Shown one piece after another: positions 7,048-13,606 of a stretch of 13,606 bases of DNA. The translations under genes and the position numbers were made by a program. The stretch is taken from assembly GCA_016186045.1 (NCBI GenBank), contig JACPMJ010000018.1, positions 1 through 13,606 on the forward strand, written 5' to 3'. This DNA is from Candidatus Uhrbacteria bacterium (lineage in GTDB: Bacteria; Patescibacteriota; Patescibacteriia; JACQRZ01). Below the pieces are notes generated by a model. The model saw only the letters and a program-made list of their open reading frames with translations, did not search any database and was not told the DNA's origin. The stretch's first letter is position 1; each line of letters starts with the position of its first letter.

Positions 7048-7082
7048 GAAAACATCTCCCTCGCGGAGGTGTTTTTGTTTTT
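7048..7082 (+). terminator. Intrinsic terminator, family copy D (ACCCCATGAAAACATCTCC-CTCGC-GGAGGTG TTTTTGTTTTT)
   Basis: Near-identical to copy A, including the ACCCCATGAAA prefix that in copy A is the tRNA-His 3' end. Confidence 0.7.
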
Positions 7083-7642: not shown

Positions 7643-7680
7643 AAAAATAAAAAACCTCCAGCATCTTTTTTGATGTCGGC
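7643..7680 (-). terminator. Minus-strand intrinsic terminator (GCCGACATC-A6-GATGCTGGAGG + U-tract), family 2 copy 1
   Basis: On the minus strand this reads ...GCCGACATCAAAAAAGATGCTGGAGGTTTTTTATTTTT. It shares the 21-mer AAAAACCTCCAGCATCTTTTT with 8722-8742. Confidence 0.55.
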
Positions 7681-8520: not shown

Positions 8521-8715
8521 TAGAGAGCGTTGCAAAACTCTTATTCTGTCATCCCCGACTCGATCGGGGATCCAGTATTTATTTTAAATACGAGGAACTA
8601 GATTCTCGGGTCAAGTTCCCGATTTTTGAACGAGACCTTGAGTTCATAAAAATCGCAATGCCTGTGGTGCCCGAGAATGACACAGGACGAGTTTTGCAAC
8701 GTTCTCTCACTCTAC
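8521..8715. repeat. MITE-like / structured element, copy 2 (~195 bp) with ~20-bp terminal inverted repeats TAGAGAGCGTTGCAAAACTC / GAGTTTTGCAACGTTCTCTCACTCTA
   Basis: TIRs at 8522-8541 and 8690-8715. Internal hairpins CCCCGA-CTCGA-TCGGGG and CCTGTG-N14-CACAGG, and a long-range TCTCGGG/CCCGAGA pairing. Homologous to 4948..5118. Confidence 0.6.
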
Positions 8716-8717
8716 AA

Positions 8718-8756
8718 ATAAAAAACCTCCAGCATCTTTTTTTAGATGTGAAGGTC
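8718..8756 (-). terminator. Minus-strand intrinsic terminator for the 306-aa gene (CCTTCACATCT-A7-AGATGCTGGAGG + U-tract), family 2 copy 2
   Basis: Same conserved 3' half (GATGCTGGAGGTTTTTTATTT) as the terminator at 7643-7680. Confidence 0.55.
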
Positions 8757-9847: not shown

Positions 9848-11068
9848 ATGAACATATACCATCCGGAAAACGCAGTGGTTCCTATAAAACTTTGGACTGA
9901 TGGCGTCCCGATTGAAGAGAGCGCTCTCAAACAGCTTGAACATGTCGCGCGGCTTCCCATTGTAGTATCGCATATTGCCGTTATGCCGGATGTCCATTGG
10001 GGCCGCGGGGCGACGATTGGAAGCGTCATTCCTACTCAAGGCACGATTATTCCCGCGGCAGTGGGGGTGGATATCGGATGCGGGATGATGGCGGTGAGAA
10101 CTACGCTCACCGCGAACGATTTACCCGGTGATCTTCACAGTATGCGCCTTTGTATTGAAGAAGCCGTACCGCATGGCCGCACGCATGATGGCGGCAAAGG
10201 AGATGCGGGAGCGTGGGGGAATCACCCGCCGTCAGCAATTTTAAACGAGTGGGATGCGCTTCATGGTGGATTTAAGGCGATTCTCCAGCAACATCCAAAG
10301 CTTGGCCATGCAAACACCTACACGCATCTGGGGACACTCGGAACGGGAAATCACTTTATCGAGGTATGCATTGATGAGCGCGAACAAGTGTGGCTCATGC
10401 TTCATAGCGGTTCGCGCGGTGTGGGAAATCGCATTGGATCGTACTTCATTGAGCTTGCAAAGAAGGATATGGCACGGCACGGCATTGATCTTCCCAATAA
10501 GGAGCTTGCATACCTTCAGGAAGGAAGTGAACATTTTAGCGACTACGTGATCGCTGTCTCATGGGCGCAAGAATTTGCGCGAATAAATCGTACACTTATG
10601 ATGCAGGCGGTCATCAAGGCGATCAAAAAGTCAAAAGGCCTTCCACATTTTAGCATCACGGATGTGACGGTAAACTGTCATCACAACTACGTGCAGAAAG
10701 AAATCCACTTTGGTCAAGAGGTTTATCTCACACGGAAGGGTGCGGTTCGCGCGGGGGAAGATGATCTTGGAATCATTCCCGGAAGCATGGGAGCGCGATC
10801 ATTCATCGTCCGCGGAAAGGGAAATCCAGACTCCTTTTACTCCTGCAGTCATGGCGCGGGCAGAAAAATGGGGAGGGCGGAGGCGAAACGCCAGTTCACG
10901 CTTCAAGACCATCGCAACGCCACAGAGGGCGTAGAGTGCCGTAAAGATACGGAGGTCATTGACGAGACGCCCGGCGCGTATAAAGATATTGAGGCGGTCA
11001 TGAACGCACAGGCCGACCTTGTGGAGATTCTCTACACACTCAAACAAGTTATTTGCGTCAAAGGATAA
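9848..11068 (+). CDS. rtcB: RNA-splicing ligase RtcB (3'-phosphate/5'-hydroxyl RNA ligase)
   Basis: 406 aa. Hallmarks ...MPDVHWGRGATIGSV..., GVDIGCGM, GTGNHFIEVC, HSGSRGVGN, NCHHNY, CSHGAGR. The length matches E. coli RtcB (408 aa). Confidence 0.9.
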   Translation: MNIYHPENAVVPIKLWTDGVPIEESALKQLEHVARLPIVVSHIAVMPDVHWGRGATIGSVIPTQGTIIPAAVGVDIGCGMMAVRTTLTANDLPGDLHSMRLCIEEAVPHGRTHDGGKGDAGAWGNHPPSAILNEWDALHGGFKAILQQHPKLGHANTYTHLGTLGTGNHFIEVCIDEREQVWLMLHSGSRGVGNRIGSYFIELAKKDMARHGIDLPNKELAYLQEGSEHFSDYVIAVSWAQEFARINRTLMMQAVIKAIKKSKGLPHFSITDVTVNCHHNYVQKEIHFGQEVYLTRKGAVRAGEDDLGIIPGSMGARSFIVRGKGNPDSFYSCSHGAGRKMGRAEAKRQFTLQDHRNATEGVECRKDTEVIDETPGAYKDIEAVMNAQADLVEILYTLKQVICVKG

Positions 11069-11127: not shown

Positions 11128-11170
11128 ACAGAAAATATAAAAAGCGCAGGAATCACGGTGATCCTGCGCG
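11128..11170 (-). terminator. Minus-strand intrinsic terminator (GCGCAGGA-N10-TCCTGCGC + U-tract) for the 11193..12127 gene
   Basis: 8-bp GC-rich stem 11144-11151/11162-11169. The plus-strand A-run 11136-11143 becomes the U-tract on the minus strand. Confidence 0.6.
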
Positions 11171-11192: not shown

Positions 11193-12127
11193 CTACGAAA
11201 GAAGATGCTTTTCGACGACCTCGACGACCTGATCGATCGTGAGAGTGGAGCTGACACCCTGCGGACTTCCGCCGATCGTCGGAGAGCCGCCCCAACCGGG
11301 CTCGAGTTCGTTGAGTTCCGCGAGAGCCGACTTGATGTCCGCGAACTTTCCCGCCTCGAAGACGCAGATCGTGAACTTCTTGTATGGCTCGCTCGGTGGT
11401 CCTTGCCTGAACTCCGGATTGAGCGCGACCACGACAGGCGCGCGAGGGAGTACCCAACGCTGGTGGCCGCCCGGTGCGTACCCTCCACCACGGCGATGCG
11501 ACCGCCGGAACGCGTCTCGGACTTGATCTTCCCTGTTTCCATGGCGGTGATCATATCGAGCCGCTCCTTCTCGACTTGGGTGCGGTACTGTGCCGGTTCG
11601 TCACCGGTGAGCAACCACTGTTCCATCGTCGAAACGCGATCCGCAAGCGAGACCTTGAAGTCCATGACCGCCGCCGCGATTGCCGCGAGCGAGCGGGACG
11701 ACTCGGCCGTTGCCGAACTCTCGTCCCACTGGTTTTCCCGGGTGGGAAGTGGCTTGGGGCCGGGGTAGCCGCCACGCGCGAACTTATCCGAAGTGGCAAC
11801 CATATTGATCCGATCCATCGCGGACTCGAGGCTTTCGCCCTTCGCCCGGAGGCTAAAGATCGCCATGGAACCTACCGCGTCCAGATCGGCGCGCACCGTC
11901 GTGAGAGTAGAACCCTCGGCAGGAAGATCCACCGTCACCGCGTCCTCGATGGCCGCACGACTCGCGTCGCCGCCTGAGTGCTGGGGGTCGAGGTTGAAGG
12001 TACACCGCTCTGCGAGCGCTGACACCGTGACCTCGATTCCGTAAATCGAACTTCCGGCAAACACCCTGTCATTCGCCTCTGCCGCGGCCGGAACATTCCG
12101 GGGATCCAACGTCGCGAAATTATACAT
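11193..12127 (-). pseudogene. Hypothetical protein (~310 aa), GC-rich, with an apparent frameshift near 11440-11470
   Basis: The N-terminal ~225 aa come from the 12127 frame (SD GAAGGAGAAA-N6-ATG). After ...ATSVGYS that frame turns into an SR-rich low-complexity tail. The 11432-11193 frame gives ...LPRAPVVALNPEFRQGPPSEPYKKFTICVFEAGKFADIKSALAELNELEPGWGG...VVEKHLLS*, which ends just before the terminator. Confidence 0.5.
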
Positions 12128-12165: not shown

Positions 12166-12181
12166 GATACCACGTGGTATC
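12166..12181. promoter_or_regulatory. Perfect 16-bp palindrome GATACCAC|GTGGTATC between the operator repeat and the gene start
   Basis: Exact dyad symmetry around a CACGTG core, in the 5' region of the 11193..12127 gene. Confidence 0.4.
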
Positions 12182-12187
12182 ATTTTA

Positions 12188-12235
12188 CCCTATCAGAAAC
12201 GTTTTTTAGAAAAACACCTCTGATAGAGGCACAAG
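12188..12235. promoter_or_regulatory. 48-bp split-palindrome operator, copy 1: CCCTATCAGA-(AT-rich 20-nt dyad spacer)-TCTGATAGAGG
   Basis: CCCTATCAGAAACGTTTTTTAGAAAAACACCTCTGATAGAGGCACAAG. The half-sites are identical to tetO2 halves (TCCCTATCAG / TGATAGAGA) but separated by ~22 bp. It lies upstream of the 11193..12127 gene. Confidence 0.5.
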
Positions 12236-12266
12236 ATCGTACCTCTACAGGTTTCTTGTGCGTTCG

Positions 12267-12773
12267 TTACGACGTACCGCGCTTGAGAGTTGGTGACCCA
12301 GTATCCATGAAGCCGTGAAACAGACGCTCCATGGTTATCCATCCGCCACACTCCGATCGCACTATATGCAACTTTTTGAAAGATGCGCGTGCCATCACCT
12401 CTGCCTTTTCATGGGTATTGCATGGACAGGTGACGAGAGTTACCTTGTCGTGCGGGAACTTTGCGGCGAACATAATTGCTGACTCGTATCCTTGAGCGCC
12501 TACATAGACCACGAGGTGATCTATGGTACCGGACCAGTTGAAAAGCTCATTGAAGAGGTAATCAATCGCTTCGCAGACGTATTCCTCGCCGCCAGAACGA
12601 CAGGGACCGAAAAGATCCATACTCATGAGGCCTTGAAGTACGAACGCCCGTCGGCCGTTCTCAAAGACCGATTTTTCCATTCCTGTGTGATAAATTCCCA
12701 TCCCCAACGTAGTATGAGTTAAGAACACCGCCGTAGTGATAACCGTCGTTTTTTCTTGAGCGGTTTTTTTCAT
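12267..12773 (-). CDS. Hypothetical protein (168 aa), GC-rich; no family recognised
   Basis: SD AAGGAGG-N7-ATG at 12773. The operator repeat lies ~50 bp upstream. Confidence 0.55.
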   Translation of the reverse strand: MKKTAQEKTTVITTAVFLTHTTLGMGIYHTGMEKSVFENGRRAFVLQGLMSMDLFGPCRSGGEEYVCEAIDYLFNELFNWSGTIDHLVVYVGAQGYESAIMFAAKFPHDKVTLVTCPCNTHEKAEVMARASFKKLHIVRSECGGWITMERLFHGFMDTGSPTLKRGTS

Positions 12774-12825
12774 GGAACATCCTCCTTCTTATTGGGCATT
12801 TTTAATACAACATAGTATCGTCTCG

Positions 12826-12874
12826 CCCTATCAGAAACGTTTTTTGAAAAAAACATCTCTGATAGAGGCGCAAG
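12826..12874. promoter_or_regulatory. 48-bp split-palindrome operator, copy 2
   Basis: CCCTATCAGAAACGTTTTTTGAAAAAAACATCTCTGATAGAGGCGCAAG, ~90% identical to copy 1, upstream of the 12267..12773 gene. Confidence 0.5.
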
Positions 12875-12927: not shown

Positions 12928-13179
12928 TCACCTCAGAACTCCCAACTTCTCCCGAAACCGCCGTTCAAACTCAAACTCGGTTGCGAGTTTGCAATCCGAA
13001 TCAATCGGCGTTTCCAGAAGTGCTCTGTATGCCACCATCGCAATCCCTACCTTTTCTGCACAAACTTCGCACAGCATGAAGTGAAAGATAGCGAGCGGCG
13101 AGACCGTATCCGGCGGATCAGCATCTCGCTCGATAAGCGATTGCGCGATATCCGCGATCTCCTGATTGGTAAGTGGCAT
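12928..13179 (-). CDS. Hypothetical small protein (83 aa) immediately downstream of ssrA
   Basis: SD AAAGGAGGG-N7-ATG. It starts 29 nt after the tmRNA 3' end. Confidence 0.45.
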   Translation of the reverse strand: MPLTNQEIADIAQSLIERDADPPDTVSPLAIFHFMLCEVCAEKVGIAMVAYRALLETPIDSDCKLATEFEFERRFREKLGVLR

Positions 13180-13207
13180 GTAGTCACCCTCCTTTCAAAG
13201 AGCGTAG

Positions 13208-13554
13208 TGGAGATGCGGAGAGTCGAACTCCGGTGTCCACTGTCAGCCAAGGTACATCTACGCGCATAGTTACTCGTTTTCAGTGAGCAACACCTGTTTT
13301 GCTTGAGGCGCAAACCGCCGTCCGGGAATTTCTCGCCACCCGTTGGCCAGCACATTGTTCTTAATCGCGACGATCCGTGCCAGAATCGCGATCCAGTCTC
13401 TCCTTTTCGTCTGACCCAGCTACAGAGACACCCTCACTGGCAGACGCTTTGGCTAAGCAGCCGCGGTTGTGTTTTTGTCTCTTTTAACGAATTGAGACAA
13501 ACTTCGACGCGCAGTACTCTCCACTGATCAGCAGATCGAAACCGTTACATCCCC
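13208..13554 (-). ncRNA. ssrA: tmRNA (ssrA), ~347 nt, CCA not encoded
   Basis: 5' end GGGGAUGUAACGGUUUCGAUCUG fits the tmRNA consensus GGGG...GGnUUCGA. 3' end ...CGGAG-UUCGACU-CUCCG-CAUCUCC-A is a T-arm directly joined to the acceptor 3' strand. The acceptor GGGGAUG/CAUCUCC carries the G3.U70 alanine identity pair, with discriminator A. An internal tag-like frame (GAC AAA AAC ACA ACC GCG GCU GCU UAG, ...DKNTTAAA*) lies ~75-100 nt from the 5' end. The region has no credible ORF. Confidence 0.75.
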
Positions 13555-13606
13555 CTTCAATCCCAGAAACACCCTATCTGGGATTGGAGGCGAATGTATC
13601 GATCTC

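What the first reader, a model, noticed from the sequence alone, without database searches (positions are those of the whole stretch)
12188..12874. Two copies of a 48-bp split palindromic operator with tetO-like half-sites in front of adjacent GC-rich genes
CCCTATCAGAAACGTTTTTT-(G/A)A-AAAAA(A)CA(T/C)CTCTGATAGAGGC(G/A)CAAG appears ~55-60 bp upstream of both the 11193..12127 and 12267..12773 genes, ~90% identical. The outer half-sites CCCTATCAG / TGATAGAGG match the two halves of tetO2, but they are separated by a ~22-bp AT-rich spacer that is itself dyad-symmetric. So the whole 42-bp core is one long imperfect palindrome, or on RNA a ~20-bp hairpin in the 5' UTR. No cognate TetR-like regulator is encoded in the window. 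The two downstream genes are both unrecognised, so this marks a small co-regulated module of unknown function.
Basis: seen in the sequence. Interest (0 to 1): 0.6.

Follow-up and report, generated by a model that had tools for sequence, protein, structure and literature searches.

The report
Repeated RNA stem-loop leader, not tetO
The two "tetO-like" palindromes are real, but they are most likely copies of a 71-nt two-hairpin RNA leader that sits between genes transcribed downstream of the tmRNA gene of an uncultured Uhrbacteria (CPR) bacterium; they are probably not a TetR-type DNA operator, and the finding is a moderately interesting lineage-specific RNA element.

Summary
Two copies of a long imperfect palindrome lie 60 and 52 nt upstream of two minus-strand genes. 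The repeated unit is longer than reported: 71 nt (12166-12236 and 12804-12874). It consists of a 19-bp hairpin (P1), a 6-nt linker and a 5-bp hairpin (P2, GATAC-N6-GTATC).

The tetO reading is not supported:
- There is no contiguous tetO and no TetR gene.
- The half-sites are 24-25 bp apart.
- The "spacer" is itself fully self-complementary.

All six non-Watson-Crick positions are G·U on the sense (minus) strand and would be A·C on the other strand. Sense RNA folds at -24/-28.5 kcal/mol, antisense at -15/-20. A syntenic relative from a groundwater metagenome carries one copy in front of the orthologous gene. Across the three copies 72/72 pair cells stay paired, while loops and linker vary freely.

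The contig has eight promoters with a perfect TTGACA -35, but none between the tmRNA gene and the terminator after the last gene. Orthologous genes in other Patescibacteria carry different long hairpins with compensatory changes. These sit behind a promoter or a hammerhead ribozyme.

Best reading: an intercistronic or 5'-leader RNA processing and stability module (about 0.55). Rivals are a wHTH operator, an attenuator, and a duplication scar.

The parts
12188..12229 (-). P1 copy 1. A 19-bp stem with one bulged U and a 3-nt loop, read on the minus (sense) strand. It lies between the 168-aa ORF and the DHH-like gene.
   Evidence: Sense RNA folds at -24 kcal/mol (z -5.5); antisense folds at -14.9 with an A·C internal loop.
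12166..12181 (-). P2 copy 1. GATACCACGTGGTATC, a 5-6 bp mini-hairpin 6 nt 3' of P1.
12826..12868 (-). P1 copy 2. It lies between the 83-aa ORF and the 168-aa ORF.
   Evidence: Sense RNA folds at -28.5 kcal/mol (z -6.7); antisense folds at -20.3.
12804..12819 (-). P2 copy 2. GATACTATGTTGTATT, with a closing G·U pair on the sense strand.
12166..12236 (-). Full repeat unit 1 (5' CTTGTGCC, then P1, linker and P2).
   Evidence: (families D4 and D12). Covariance model R1 scores 98.9 bits.
12804..12874 (-). Full repeat unit 2.
   Evidence: Model R1 scores 95.1 bits.
13205..13554 (-). tmRNA gene, same orientation, immediately upstream. The Shine-Dalgarno sequence of the 83-aa ORF begins about 12 nt after its 3' end, with no terminator between them.
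   Evidence: (103.6 bits).
12928..13179 (-). 83-aa ORF, the first ORF after the tmRNA gene. It is unrelated to the 65-aa ORF at the same place in the relative.
12267..12773 (-). 168-aa ORF flanked by the two repeat units. It is absent from the syntenic relative. It has about 105 remote homologues and no Pfam family.
11193..12127 (-). DHH/DHHA1-fold gene, conserved across Patescibacteria. Here it is frameshifted by a 2-nt insertion near 11443-11444.
11130..11169 (-). Canonical intrinsic terminator (GC-rich hairpin followed by a U run) that ends the transcription unit. It is conserved in the relative.
   Evidence: Read directly from the sequence (L022 2258-2290). The pattern scan did not flag it, probably because of its loop geometry.

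Best explanation
The motif is the DNA image of an RNA element on the minus (sense) strand. It is a 71-nt module made of a 19-bp A/U-rich stem-loop (P1), a short variable linker and a 5-bp stem-loop (P2). It sits 30-38 nt upstream of the start codon of the next ORF.

The three ORFs (83 aa, 168 aa, DHH-like) appear to be transcribed together with, or by read-through from, the tmRNA unit. I infer that the module acts after transcription as an intercistronic processing and stability signal. A two-turn dsRNA stem is the natural substrate of RNase III. After cleavage or trimming, the stem would cap the 3' end of the upstream segment or the 5' end of the downstream mRNA. This would uncouple the accessory ORFs from the tmRNA precursor and give each a defined leader.

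The module was duplicated when the 168-aa gene was gained. Alternatively, one copy was lost together with that gene in the relative.

Shown: the structure, its strand specificity, its conservation pattern, the lack of promoters, and analogous structured leaders at orthologous genes. Inferred: co-transcription, and the cleavage or stabilisation mechanism.
For: 1. Strand asymmetry. Sense RNA folds as one continuous stem at -24 and -28.5 kcal/mol. Antisense RNA folds at -14.9 and -20.3 with an internal loop. All six imperfect positions (four in P1, two in P2) are G·U on the sense strand.
2. Conservation pattern. In the alignment of the two copies and the relative, 72/72 pair cells are standard pairs. 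The four stem substitutions are all G·U to A-U or G-C changes. 4/48 paired columns vary, against 12/17 unpaired columns (Fisher p = 2e-6).
3. The so-called spacer is paired right up to a 3-4 nt loop, and the loop differs in all three copies.
4. Promoters. The window has 8 promoters with a perfect TTGACA -35 in front of other genes. None scoring 9/12 or better lies on the minus strand from the tmRNA gene to the terminator. There is no terminator between the tmRNA gene and the 83-aa ORF. A canonical terminator follows only the last gene.
5. Synteny. The relative L022/L028 has tmRNA, a small ORF, one module, then an intact orthologue. P1 is more than 90% identical there, whereas the flanking coding sequence is about 75% identical.
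6. Orthologous genes elsewhere carry other long hairpins in leaders that are probably transcribed. In L034 the hairpin lies behind a predicted TTGACA-17-TATACT promoter. In L037, L038 and L049 it lies behind a type III hammerhead candidate (31.3 bits, E = 5e-5). Six pairs show compensatory changes among three sequences.
7. Further ~20-bp hairpins with sense-strand G·U pairs flank the tmRNA 5' side (z = -8).
Against: - No transcript data exist. Co-transcription with the tmRNA gene and any cleavage are inferred.
- Only three to four copies in two organisms are known. No double compensatory change occurs within P1 or P2 themselves.
- The copies are related by descent, so the G·U argument rests on about six events (roughly p = 0.001-0.02).
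- A perfect palindrome (copy 1 of P2) and conserved arms are also what a dimeric DNA-binding protein would select.
- A weak extended -10 (TGGTATCGT) overlaps P2 in copy 1. The same TATCGT hexamer serves the tRNA-His promoter.
- RNase III presence in this genome was not checked, because the rest of the MAG is not available.
Confidence: 0.55

Rival explanations
1. DNA operator. P2 (GATAC-N6-GTATC), and possibly the outer arms of P1, are binding sites for a dimeric or tetrameric repressor. The best candidate is one of the TrmB-family winged-helix regulators encoded nearby, not TetR. The repressor would control a weak, -35-less promoter overlapping P2.
For: - Copy 1 of P2 is a perfect 16-bp palindrome.
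- The hexamer TATCGT preceded by TG overlaps it, and TATCGT is the -10 of the tRNA-His promoter.
- Two TrmB-like regulators are encoded in the window, and their counterparts in the relative.
- From memory, TrmB-type operators are TAC..GTA-type palindromes. This is a lead, not a test.
- The outer half-sites resemble tetO.
Against: - The candidate -10 is not conserved (TATTAA in copy 2), and no -35 exists in any copy.
- The 24-25 bp between the tetO-like halves is itself fully paired, which an operator does not require.
- All imperfections are sense-strand G·U.
- There is no TetR gene and no contiguous tetO.
- Arms of 19 bp are much longer than any HTH half-site.
Confidence: 0.2
2. Attenuator or leaky terminator. 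The element damps read-through from the highly transcribed tmRNA gene. The 5' arm alone can form a small hairpin followed by a U run (GCCUCUAUCAGAGGUGUUUUUCU) before the 3' arm is made.
For: - The pattern scan flags this mini-terminator in copy 1.
- Its 3' part resembles the contig's own terminator family, GGAGGTGTTTTTGT (family D1).
- Genes downstream of a tmRNA gene would need damping.
Against: - The mini-hairpin is weakened by a C·A mismatch in copy 2 and in the relative.
- Full P1 is far more stable and is not followed by a U tract.
- The real terminators of this contig look different.
Confidence: 0.1
3. Structural by-product with no function of its own. It would be a duplication scar or recombination substrate left by the insertion or deletion of the 168-aa gene, or a low-copy mobile palindrome (REP-, MITE- or IS200-end-like).
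For: - The two units are direct repeats exactly flanking the one gene that the relative lacks.
- The ORF next to the tmRNA gene differs between the two organisms, so the site is a hot spot for gene turnover.
Against: - P1 is the best-conserved non-coding piece between the two organisms. It also shows a strict stem versus loop substitution pattern.
- The single copy in the relative sits in front of the orthologous gene.
- No transposase is present: there is no Y1_Tnp hit for the 168-aa protein.
- A pattern scan for the P1 hairpin (conserved outer arms and T/A runs, variable inner stem and loop) found no further true copy: the 5 genome-contig hits and the 1 viral-contig hit were unrelated, and 1 of the 14 metagenome hits was real. 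Model R1 found none in the about 200 kb of loci held.
Confidence: 0.1

Closest known systems
tetO / TetR operator (Tn10 tetO2, TCCCTATCAGTGATAGAGA)
   Same: The outer 9 + 8 nt (CCCTATCAG and TGATAGAG) equal the two tetO halves. Even the CCC/CTC asymmetry is the same.
   Different: - The halves are 24-25 bp apart instead of abutting on one central base pair.
- There is no tetR gene and no promoter overlap.
- The intervening sequence is self-complementary.
- The imperfections are strand-specific G·U pairs.
The resemblance is best treated as coincidence.
RNase III processing stem-loops in polycistronic transcripts (phage T7 early-region sites, the stems flanking rRNA in rrn operons, the rnc leader). 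Named from established knowledge.
   Same: About two helical turns of dsRNA, placed between cistrons or beside a stable RNA gene in one transcription unit. Repeated at successive gene junctions.
   Different: Cleavage is untested. P1 is a nearly perfect A/U-rich stem without the internal loops typical of T7 sites. The organism is a CPR bacterium with no experimental system.
5'-terminal stabiliser hairpins and ribozyme-plus-hairpin insulators (ompA 5' stem-loop, B. subtilis aprE and ermC leaders, synthetic RiboJ). Named from established knowledge.
   Same: A stable stem-loop a few tens of nt upstream of the Shine-Dalgarno sequence. In other lineages the orthologous genes carry a hammerhead ribozyme followed by a long hairpin, which is the same layout as RiboJ.
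   Different: The position of the mRNA 5' end here is unknown. No ribozyme was found in the window.
REP/BIME-type intercistronic palindromes (for example malE-malF). Named from established knowledge.
   Same: Imperfect palindromes repeated in intergenic regions inside operons. They act as RNA 3' barriers.
   Different: REPs are GC-rich, shorter and present in hundreds of copies. Here only 2 copies are seen in 13.6 kb, 1-2 in 21 kb of the relative, and none elsewhere.
Structured leader of the DHH-like gene in other Patescibacteria (L034, L037, L038, L049). It is uncharacterised and not in Rfam.
   Same: Same gene family downstream. Same order of elements: long hairpin, short hairpin, then the Shine-Dalgarno region.
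   Different: There is no detectable sequence similarity; model R1 does not hit these leaders. Those leaders add a third hairpin and an upstream anti-SD pairing. The window's module also serves an unrelated gene.

Membership tests
TetR/tetO operator | Contiguous ~19-bp operator with the two half-sites abutting one central base pair | tested here: not met
   No match to TCCCTATCAGTGATAGAGA with up to 3 mismatches. The halves are 24-25 bp apart.
TetR/tetO operator | A TetR-family repressor gene adjacent to the operator (usually divergent) | tested here: not met
   Pfam scans of 17 larger ORFs of the window find no TetR_N domain. They find only two TrmB-like wHTH proteins 5-9 kb away. The rest of the genome is not available.
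TetR/tetO operator | The operator overlaps the -35/-10 of the regulated promoter | tested here: not met
   No sigma-70-like site scoring 9/12 or better lies in or next to either copy. Eight perfect TTGACA promoters occur elsewhere in the window.
Intrinsic (Rho-independent) terminator | GC-rich stem immediately followed by a U tract | tested here: not met
   The P1 stem is A/U-rich and is followed by GGGUAAAAUGA or GGGCGAGACGA. Only an alternative mini-hairpin in copy 1 fits the pattern.
RNase III processing site | About 20 bp of dsRNA or more within a transcript | tested here: met
   A 19-bp stem plus a bulged U on the sense strand, conserved in 3 copies. That it is transcribed is inferred, not shown.
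RNase III processing site | Cleavage by RNase III in vivo or in vitro | not testable with these tools
   Needs RNA-end mapping or an enzyme assay.
5'-UTR stabiliser hairpin | The hairpin lies within a few nt of the mRNA 5' end | not testable with these tools
   No data on transcription start sites or processing sites.
REP/BIME or MITE dispersed repeat | Many dispersed copies per genome | tested here: inconclusive
   There are 2 copies in 13.6 kb, and 1 plus 1 degenerate copy in 20.9 kb of the relative. A pattern scan for the P1 hairpin (conserved outer arms, variable inner stem and loop) found no other true copy: the 5 hits in genome contigs and the 1 in viral contigs were unrelated, and 1 of 14 hits in metagenome contigs was real. 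The remainder of the source MAG could not be scanned.
Integron attC | R''/L''...L'/R' architecture with RYYYAAC and GTTRRRY core sites, 57-141 bp, downstream of each cassette ORF | tested here: not met
   Read from the sequence. No GTTRRRY/RYYYAAC cores are present, the stem is 42 nt, and there is no copy after the last ORF.
IS200/IS605 subterminal hairpins | Hairpins flanking a Y1 (HUH) transposase gene, with an empty site lacking the hairpin | tested here: not met
   The 168-aa protein has no Y1_Tnp or any other Pfam hit. The relative's 'empty' site still carries one hairpin.
Any Rfam family | Score at or above the gathering threshold | tested here: not met
   In the region only chance-level miRNA and snoRNA hits were found, with E = 0.5 or worse.

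The most novel reading that the evidence does not exclude
P1-P2 would be one lineage's version of a previously undescribed, Patescibacteria-wide class of structured leaders. These would control a conserved DHH/DHHA1-like phosphoesterase, and genes that hitch-hike on the same leader. Expression would depend on RNA processing (RNase III here, a hammerhead ribozyme elsewhere) out of stable-RNA precursor transcripts such as tmRNA, and possibly on a ligand or protein that opens a sequestered Shine-Dalgarno sequence. That would make it a new cis-regulatory RNA and processing system in CPR bacteria.
Probability: 0.12. Interest if true: 0.6.

Novelty: new member of a known kind. Interest (0 to 1): 0.32.

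Why it matters
The result removes a tempting false lead. The tetO look-alike is neither vector contamination nor a Tet-type regulon.

It also points to something modestly useful: how an uncultured CPR bacterium may express accessory genes that sit directly behind its tmRNA gene. The locus has almost no promoters and is full of ~20-bp RNA stems.

Together with the hammerhead-plus-hairpin leaders at orthologous genes, it suggests that RNA processing, rather than separate promoters, defines mRNA ends around a conserved DHH-like gene in Patescibacteria. If confirmed by metatranscriptomes, this would be one of the few statements about post-transcriptional gene organisation in CPR bacteria. It would also provide a compact natural insulator module.

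Tried and rejected
- Pattern scans for CTATCAG-N5-TTTT-N2-12-AAAA-N5-CTGATAG. Genome contigs gave 5 hits, all unrelated palindromes. Viral contigs gave 1 unrelated hit. Metagenome contigs gave 14 hits, of which only L022 is a true homologue.
- Rfam at gathering and at permissive thresholds found nothing for the motif. A weak freshwater-2 hit in L037 was not reproduced in L038.
- Pfam and PHROGs gave no hits for the three ORFs. Pfam gave nothing for remote homologues of the 168-aa protein.
- A look-up of a remote 168-aa homologue (L050) showed an unrelated context.
- I searched for a third syntenic organism through the neighbouring 306-aa protein. The best long contig (L051) is not syntenic, and model R1 finds nothing there.
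- Look-ups of the window's own 83-aa and 168-aa proteins returned only the same organism.
- An ORF running through the hairpin in L022 (45 codons) is not conserved in the window, so I rejected it as a leader peptide (sequence reading).
- The attC and IS200-end readings were rejected on sequence grounds.
- Literature searches found no paper linking hammerheads to Patescibacteria. One search failed on syntax. Another returned only general ribozyme reviews and surveys, including a 2011 survey paper on hammerhead ribozymes across all domains of life (PMC3088659).

Full report
**Source and layout**

The window is a complete 13,606-bp contig of a Candidatus Uhrbacteria (Patescibacteria/CPR) metagenome-assembled genome. 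All features relevant to the finding are on the minus strand. In order they are:
- tmRNA gene, 13554..13205 (Rfam 103.6 bits).
- An 83-aa ORF, 13179..12928. Its Shine-Dalgarno sequence starts about 12 nt after the tmRNA 3' end.
- Motif copy 2.
- A 168-aa ORF, 12773..12267.
- Motif copy 1.
- A ~310-aa gene, 12127..11193, which here carries a 2-nt frameshifting insertion near 11443.
- A canonical GC-hairpin and U-run terminator (about 11169..11130).

rtcB follows on the other strand.

**Checking the observation**

The nonamer CYCTATCAG occurs four times, all in the two copies, against 0.13 expected from shuffles. The folds are 5.5 and 6.7 standard deviations better than shuffled sequence.

The same sequence is found in seven independently assembled samples. 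A diverged copy sits at the syntenic place in a different organism from a groundwater metagenome. Chimerism and vector contamination are therefore excluded. No contiguous tetO exists, even with three mismatches allowed.

The unit is larger than reported. It is 71 nt long (12166-12236 and 12804-12874). It is made of the long palindrome (P1), a 6-nt linker and a second small palindrome GATAC-N6-GTATC (P2).

**Evidence that the element acts as RNA on the sense strand**

- Read on the minus strand, P1 is an uninterrupted 19-bp stem with one bulged U and a 3-4 nt loop. It folds at -24 and -28.5 kcal/mol. Read on the plus strand, the same region has a 3x3 A·C internal loop and folds at -14.9 and -20.3 kcal/mol.
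- Every imperfect position is G·U or U·G on the sense strand. There are four such positions in P1 and two in P2, counted across the two window copies and the relative. If a DNA palindrome were simply decaying, six out of six transitions all oriented to the same strand would have a probability of roughly 0.001-0.02 (my estimate).
- In the three-sequence alignment, 72 of 72 pair cells are standard pairs. The four stem substitutions are all G·U to A-U or G-C changes.
- Only 4 of 48 paired columns vary, against 12 of 17 loop and linker columns (Fisher p = 2e-6).
- The 24-25 bp between the tetO-like halves is itself paired to the very loop. A hairpin needs this; a split operator does not.

**Evidence that the region is inside a transcript rather than at a promoter**

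This contig uses strikingly canonical promoters. Eight sites with a perfect TTGACA -35 lie in front of the tRNA-His gene, rtcB, the TrmB-like genes and others. On the minus strand, between the tmRNA gene and the terminator after the last gene, nothing reaches 9/12. The best 8/12 candidates are not at conserved positions in the three copies.

There is no terminator between the tmRNA gene and the first ORF. The region upstream of the tmRNA gene also lacks a canonical promoter. It is packed with further ~20-24-bp hairpins (z about -8) that again contain sense-strand G·U pairs.

**Comparative evidence**

The relative (L022/L028) has a tmRNA gene, an unrelated 65-aa ORF, one P1-P2 module and then an intact orthologue. 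It has no 168-aa gene. The 5' flank of copy 2 and the 3' flank of copy 1 are each orthologous to the flanks of the single copy in the relative. So the 168-aa gene was either gained together with a duplicated module, or lost by recombination between two modules.

Identities between the two organisms:

| Region | Identity |
|---|---|
| tmRNA gene | 87% |
| P1-P2 unit (71 nt) | 82-85% |
| Coding sequences | about 75% |

Within the unit, only the loop and one stem column of P1 differ between copy 2 and the relative, so P1 alone is more than 90% identical.

A covariance model of the module finds no other copy in about 200 kb of held loci. The one exception is a degenerate copy in the relative (L028 7749-7827; 28 bits; same P2 loop TATGTT) in front of another small ORF.

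**The genes served by the module**

The downstream gene belongs to a family of 683 detected proteins spread over Patescibacteria, at 60-85% identity and with no Pfam domain. Four distant relatives sit on large phage contigs. An AlphaFold model (mean pLDDT 86.7) matches DHH/DHHA1 phosphoesterases such as PAP phosphatase 8a8k and RecJ2 7ykv, with Foldseek probability 0.97-1.0. The TM-scores are low (0.29-0.40), so the fold assignment is tentative.

The 168-aa protein is not an orphan. A full HMMER search finds about 105 remote homologues of roughly 150 aa, none with a Pfam family.

**Orthologues in other lineages carry unrelated but equally long leader hairpins**

In L034 a predicted canonical promoter (TTGACA-17-TATACT) lies upstream of the hairpin, so the hairpin would be transcribed. 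In L037, L038 and L049 a type III hammerhead candidate lies upstream, with the full catalytic core (31.3 bits, E = 5e-5, below Rfam's gathering score). So the hairpin there would lie in a processed transcript.

Among three such leaders, six base pairs show double compensatory changes, four of them in the long hairpin. An upstream anti-SD segment pairs with the ribosome-binding site.

This does not prove homology with the window's P1; model R1 does not hit these leaders. It does show that a long RNA hairpin in the leader is a recurrent, selected feature at this gene. It also shows that RNA cleavage is used to define the mRNA 5' end.

**Most likely mechanism**

The module is an intercistronic or 5'-leader RNA element. 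It is transcribed as part of a long precursor that also contains the tmRNA. The two-turn dsRNA stem is processed (RNase III is the obvious candidate) or acts as a barrier to exonucleases, or both. The effect is to separate the ORFs from the tmRNA precursor and to give each downstream ORF a defined, protected leader.

The fact that the same module precedes two unrelated genes argues for a generic expression or processing role and against a gene-specific riboswitch.

Shown: structure, strand specificity, conservation pattern, lack of promoters, analogous leaders. Inferred: co-transcription, cleavage, stabilisation.

**Rivals**

- A DNA operator is the main rival (about 0.2). Copy 1 of P2 is a perfect palindrome overlapping a possible extended -10 (TGGTATCGT). 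Two TrmB-like wHTH regulators are encoded in both organisms. Against this, the -10 is not conserved, there is no -35, and the strand-specific wobble pattern and 19-bp arms are not explained.
- An attenuator reading (a mini-hairpin plus U run within the 5' arm) holds only for copy 1.
- A functionless duplication scar or mobile palindrome is hard to square with the substitution pattern.

**Comparison with known systems and verdict**

The tetO similarity (9 + 8 nt, with the same CCC/CTC asymmetry) is real. All three defining features of a Tet operator that could be tested are not met. The closest functional analogues are RNase III processing stems in polycistronic and stable-RNA transcripts, 5' stabiliser hairpins, and the hammerhead-plus-hairpin layout known from the synthetic RiboJ insulator.

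I file it as a new, lineage-restricted member of the known kind "intercistronic or leader RNA stem-loop". Interest is moderate to low (0.32). The more novel possibility is a Patescibacteria-wide class of processed, structured leaders controlling a DHH-like enzyme. It is not excluded, and I put it at about 0.12.

Noticed in passing
window 13205-13554 (-): The tmRNA gene was found by Rfam (103.6 bits) but missed by ARAGORN. The next ORF's ribosome-binding site begins about 12 nt after its 3' end, with no terminator between.
   Followed up: partly
window ~11443-11444 (within gene 11193..12127, -): A 2-nt insertion in a GC-dinucleotide run frameshifts the otherwise highly conserved DHH-like gene. 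The same 324-aa product is called in at least 3 independent assemblies, so this is a real pseudogene or variant and not an assembly error.
   Followed up: yes
window 11193-12127 (-); proteins P0002-P0121: A Patescibacteria-wide protein family (683 hits, 60-85% identity, no Pfam) has a predicted DHH/DHHA1 phosphoesterase-like fold, with invariant NLDPQH and GWGGSPTIGGSPQG motifs. Distant homologues occur on 134-173 kb phage contigs.
   Followed up: partly
L037 5770-5817; L038 1639-1686; L049 ~12-60: Type III hammerhead ribozyme candidates (complete CUGAUGA...GAAA core, 31.3 bits, E = 5e-5, below Rfam's gathering score) lie about 200 nt upstream of DHH-like orthologues. A literature search found no paper mentioning both hammerhead ribozymes and Patescibacteria.
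   Followed up: partly
L034 4850-5003; L037 5880-6003; L038 1745-1874: A conserved multi-hairpin leader of the DHH-like gene in another lineage. It has 6 compensatory pairs among 3 sequences and an upstream anti-SD segment pairing with the ribosome-binding site. It may be an undescribed cis-regulatory RNA.
   Followed up: partly
window 13538-13606; L001 1930-2045; L028 7683-7737 and 9154-9276: Two further long hairpins (~20-24 bp, z about -8) lie directly upstream of the tmRNA gene. One overlaps the tmRNA 5' end. The other (CGCCCCCTTCCCAAGA...TCTTAGGAGGGGG) is repeated 1.5 kb upstream in the relative, next to the degenerate P1-P2 copy.
   Followed up: partly
window 716-756, 3518-3576, 4862-4926, 7041-7081: A family of near-identical intrinsic terminators (CCATGAAAGCATCTCC...GGAGGTGTTTTTGT) is reused after several genes.
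   Followed up: no
window 4950-5113 and 8522-8707: A set of direct and inverted repeats containing GTTGCAAAAC (arms up to 47 nt, 75-90% complementary) occurs at two places 3.5 kb apart. Unexplained.
   Followed up: no
window 7645-7671 and 8716-8742: A perfect 27-nt direct repeat, AAATAAAAAACCTCCAGCATCTTTTTT.
   Followed up: no
window 819-2567 (-): A 582-aa protein with major-vault-protein shoulder, Vault repeat and SPFH domains (Pfam E = 3e-22).
   Followed up: no
window 3624-4454 and 4441-4839 (+): An AAA_14/DUF4143 ATPase is split into two overlapping ORFs, probably a second frameshifted gene on this contig.
   Followed up: no
window 9848-11068 (+) vs L028 10903-11081: rtcB is inserted between the DHH-like gene and the conserved 306-aa gene, relative to the syntenic organism. 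The window's DHH-like protein is closer (85%) to the hammerhead-leader cluster than to the syntenic relative's protein. This hints at gene replacement behind a retained leader.
   Followed up: partly
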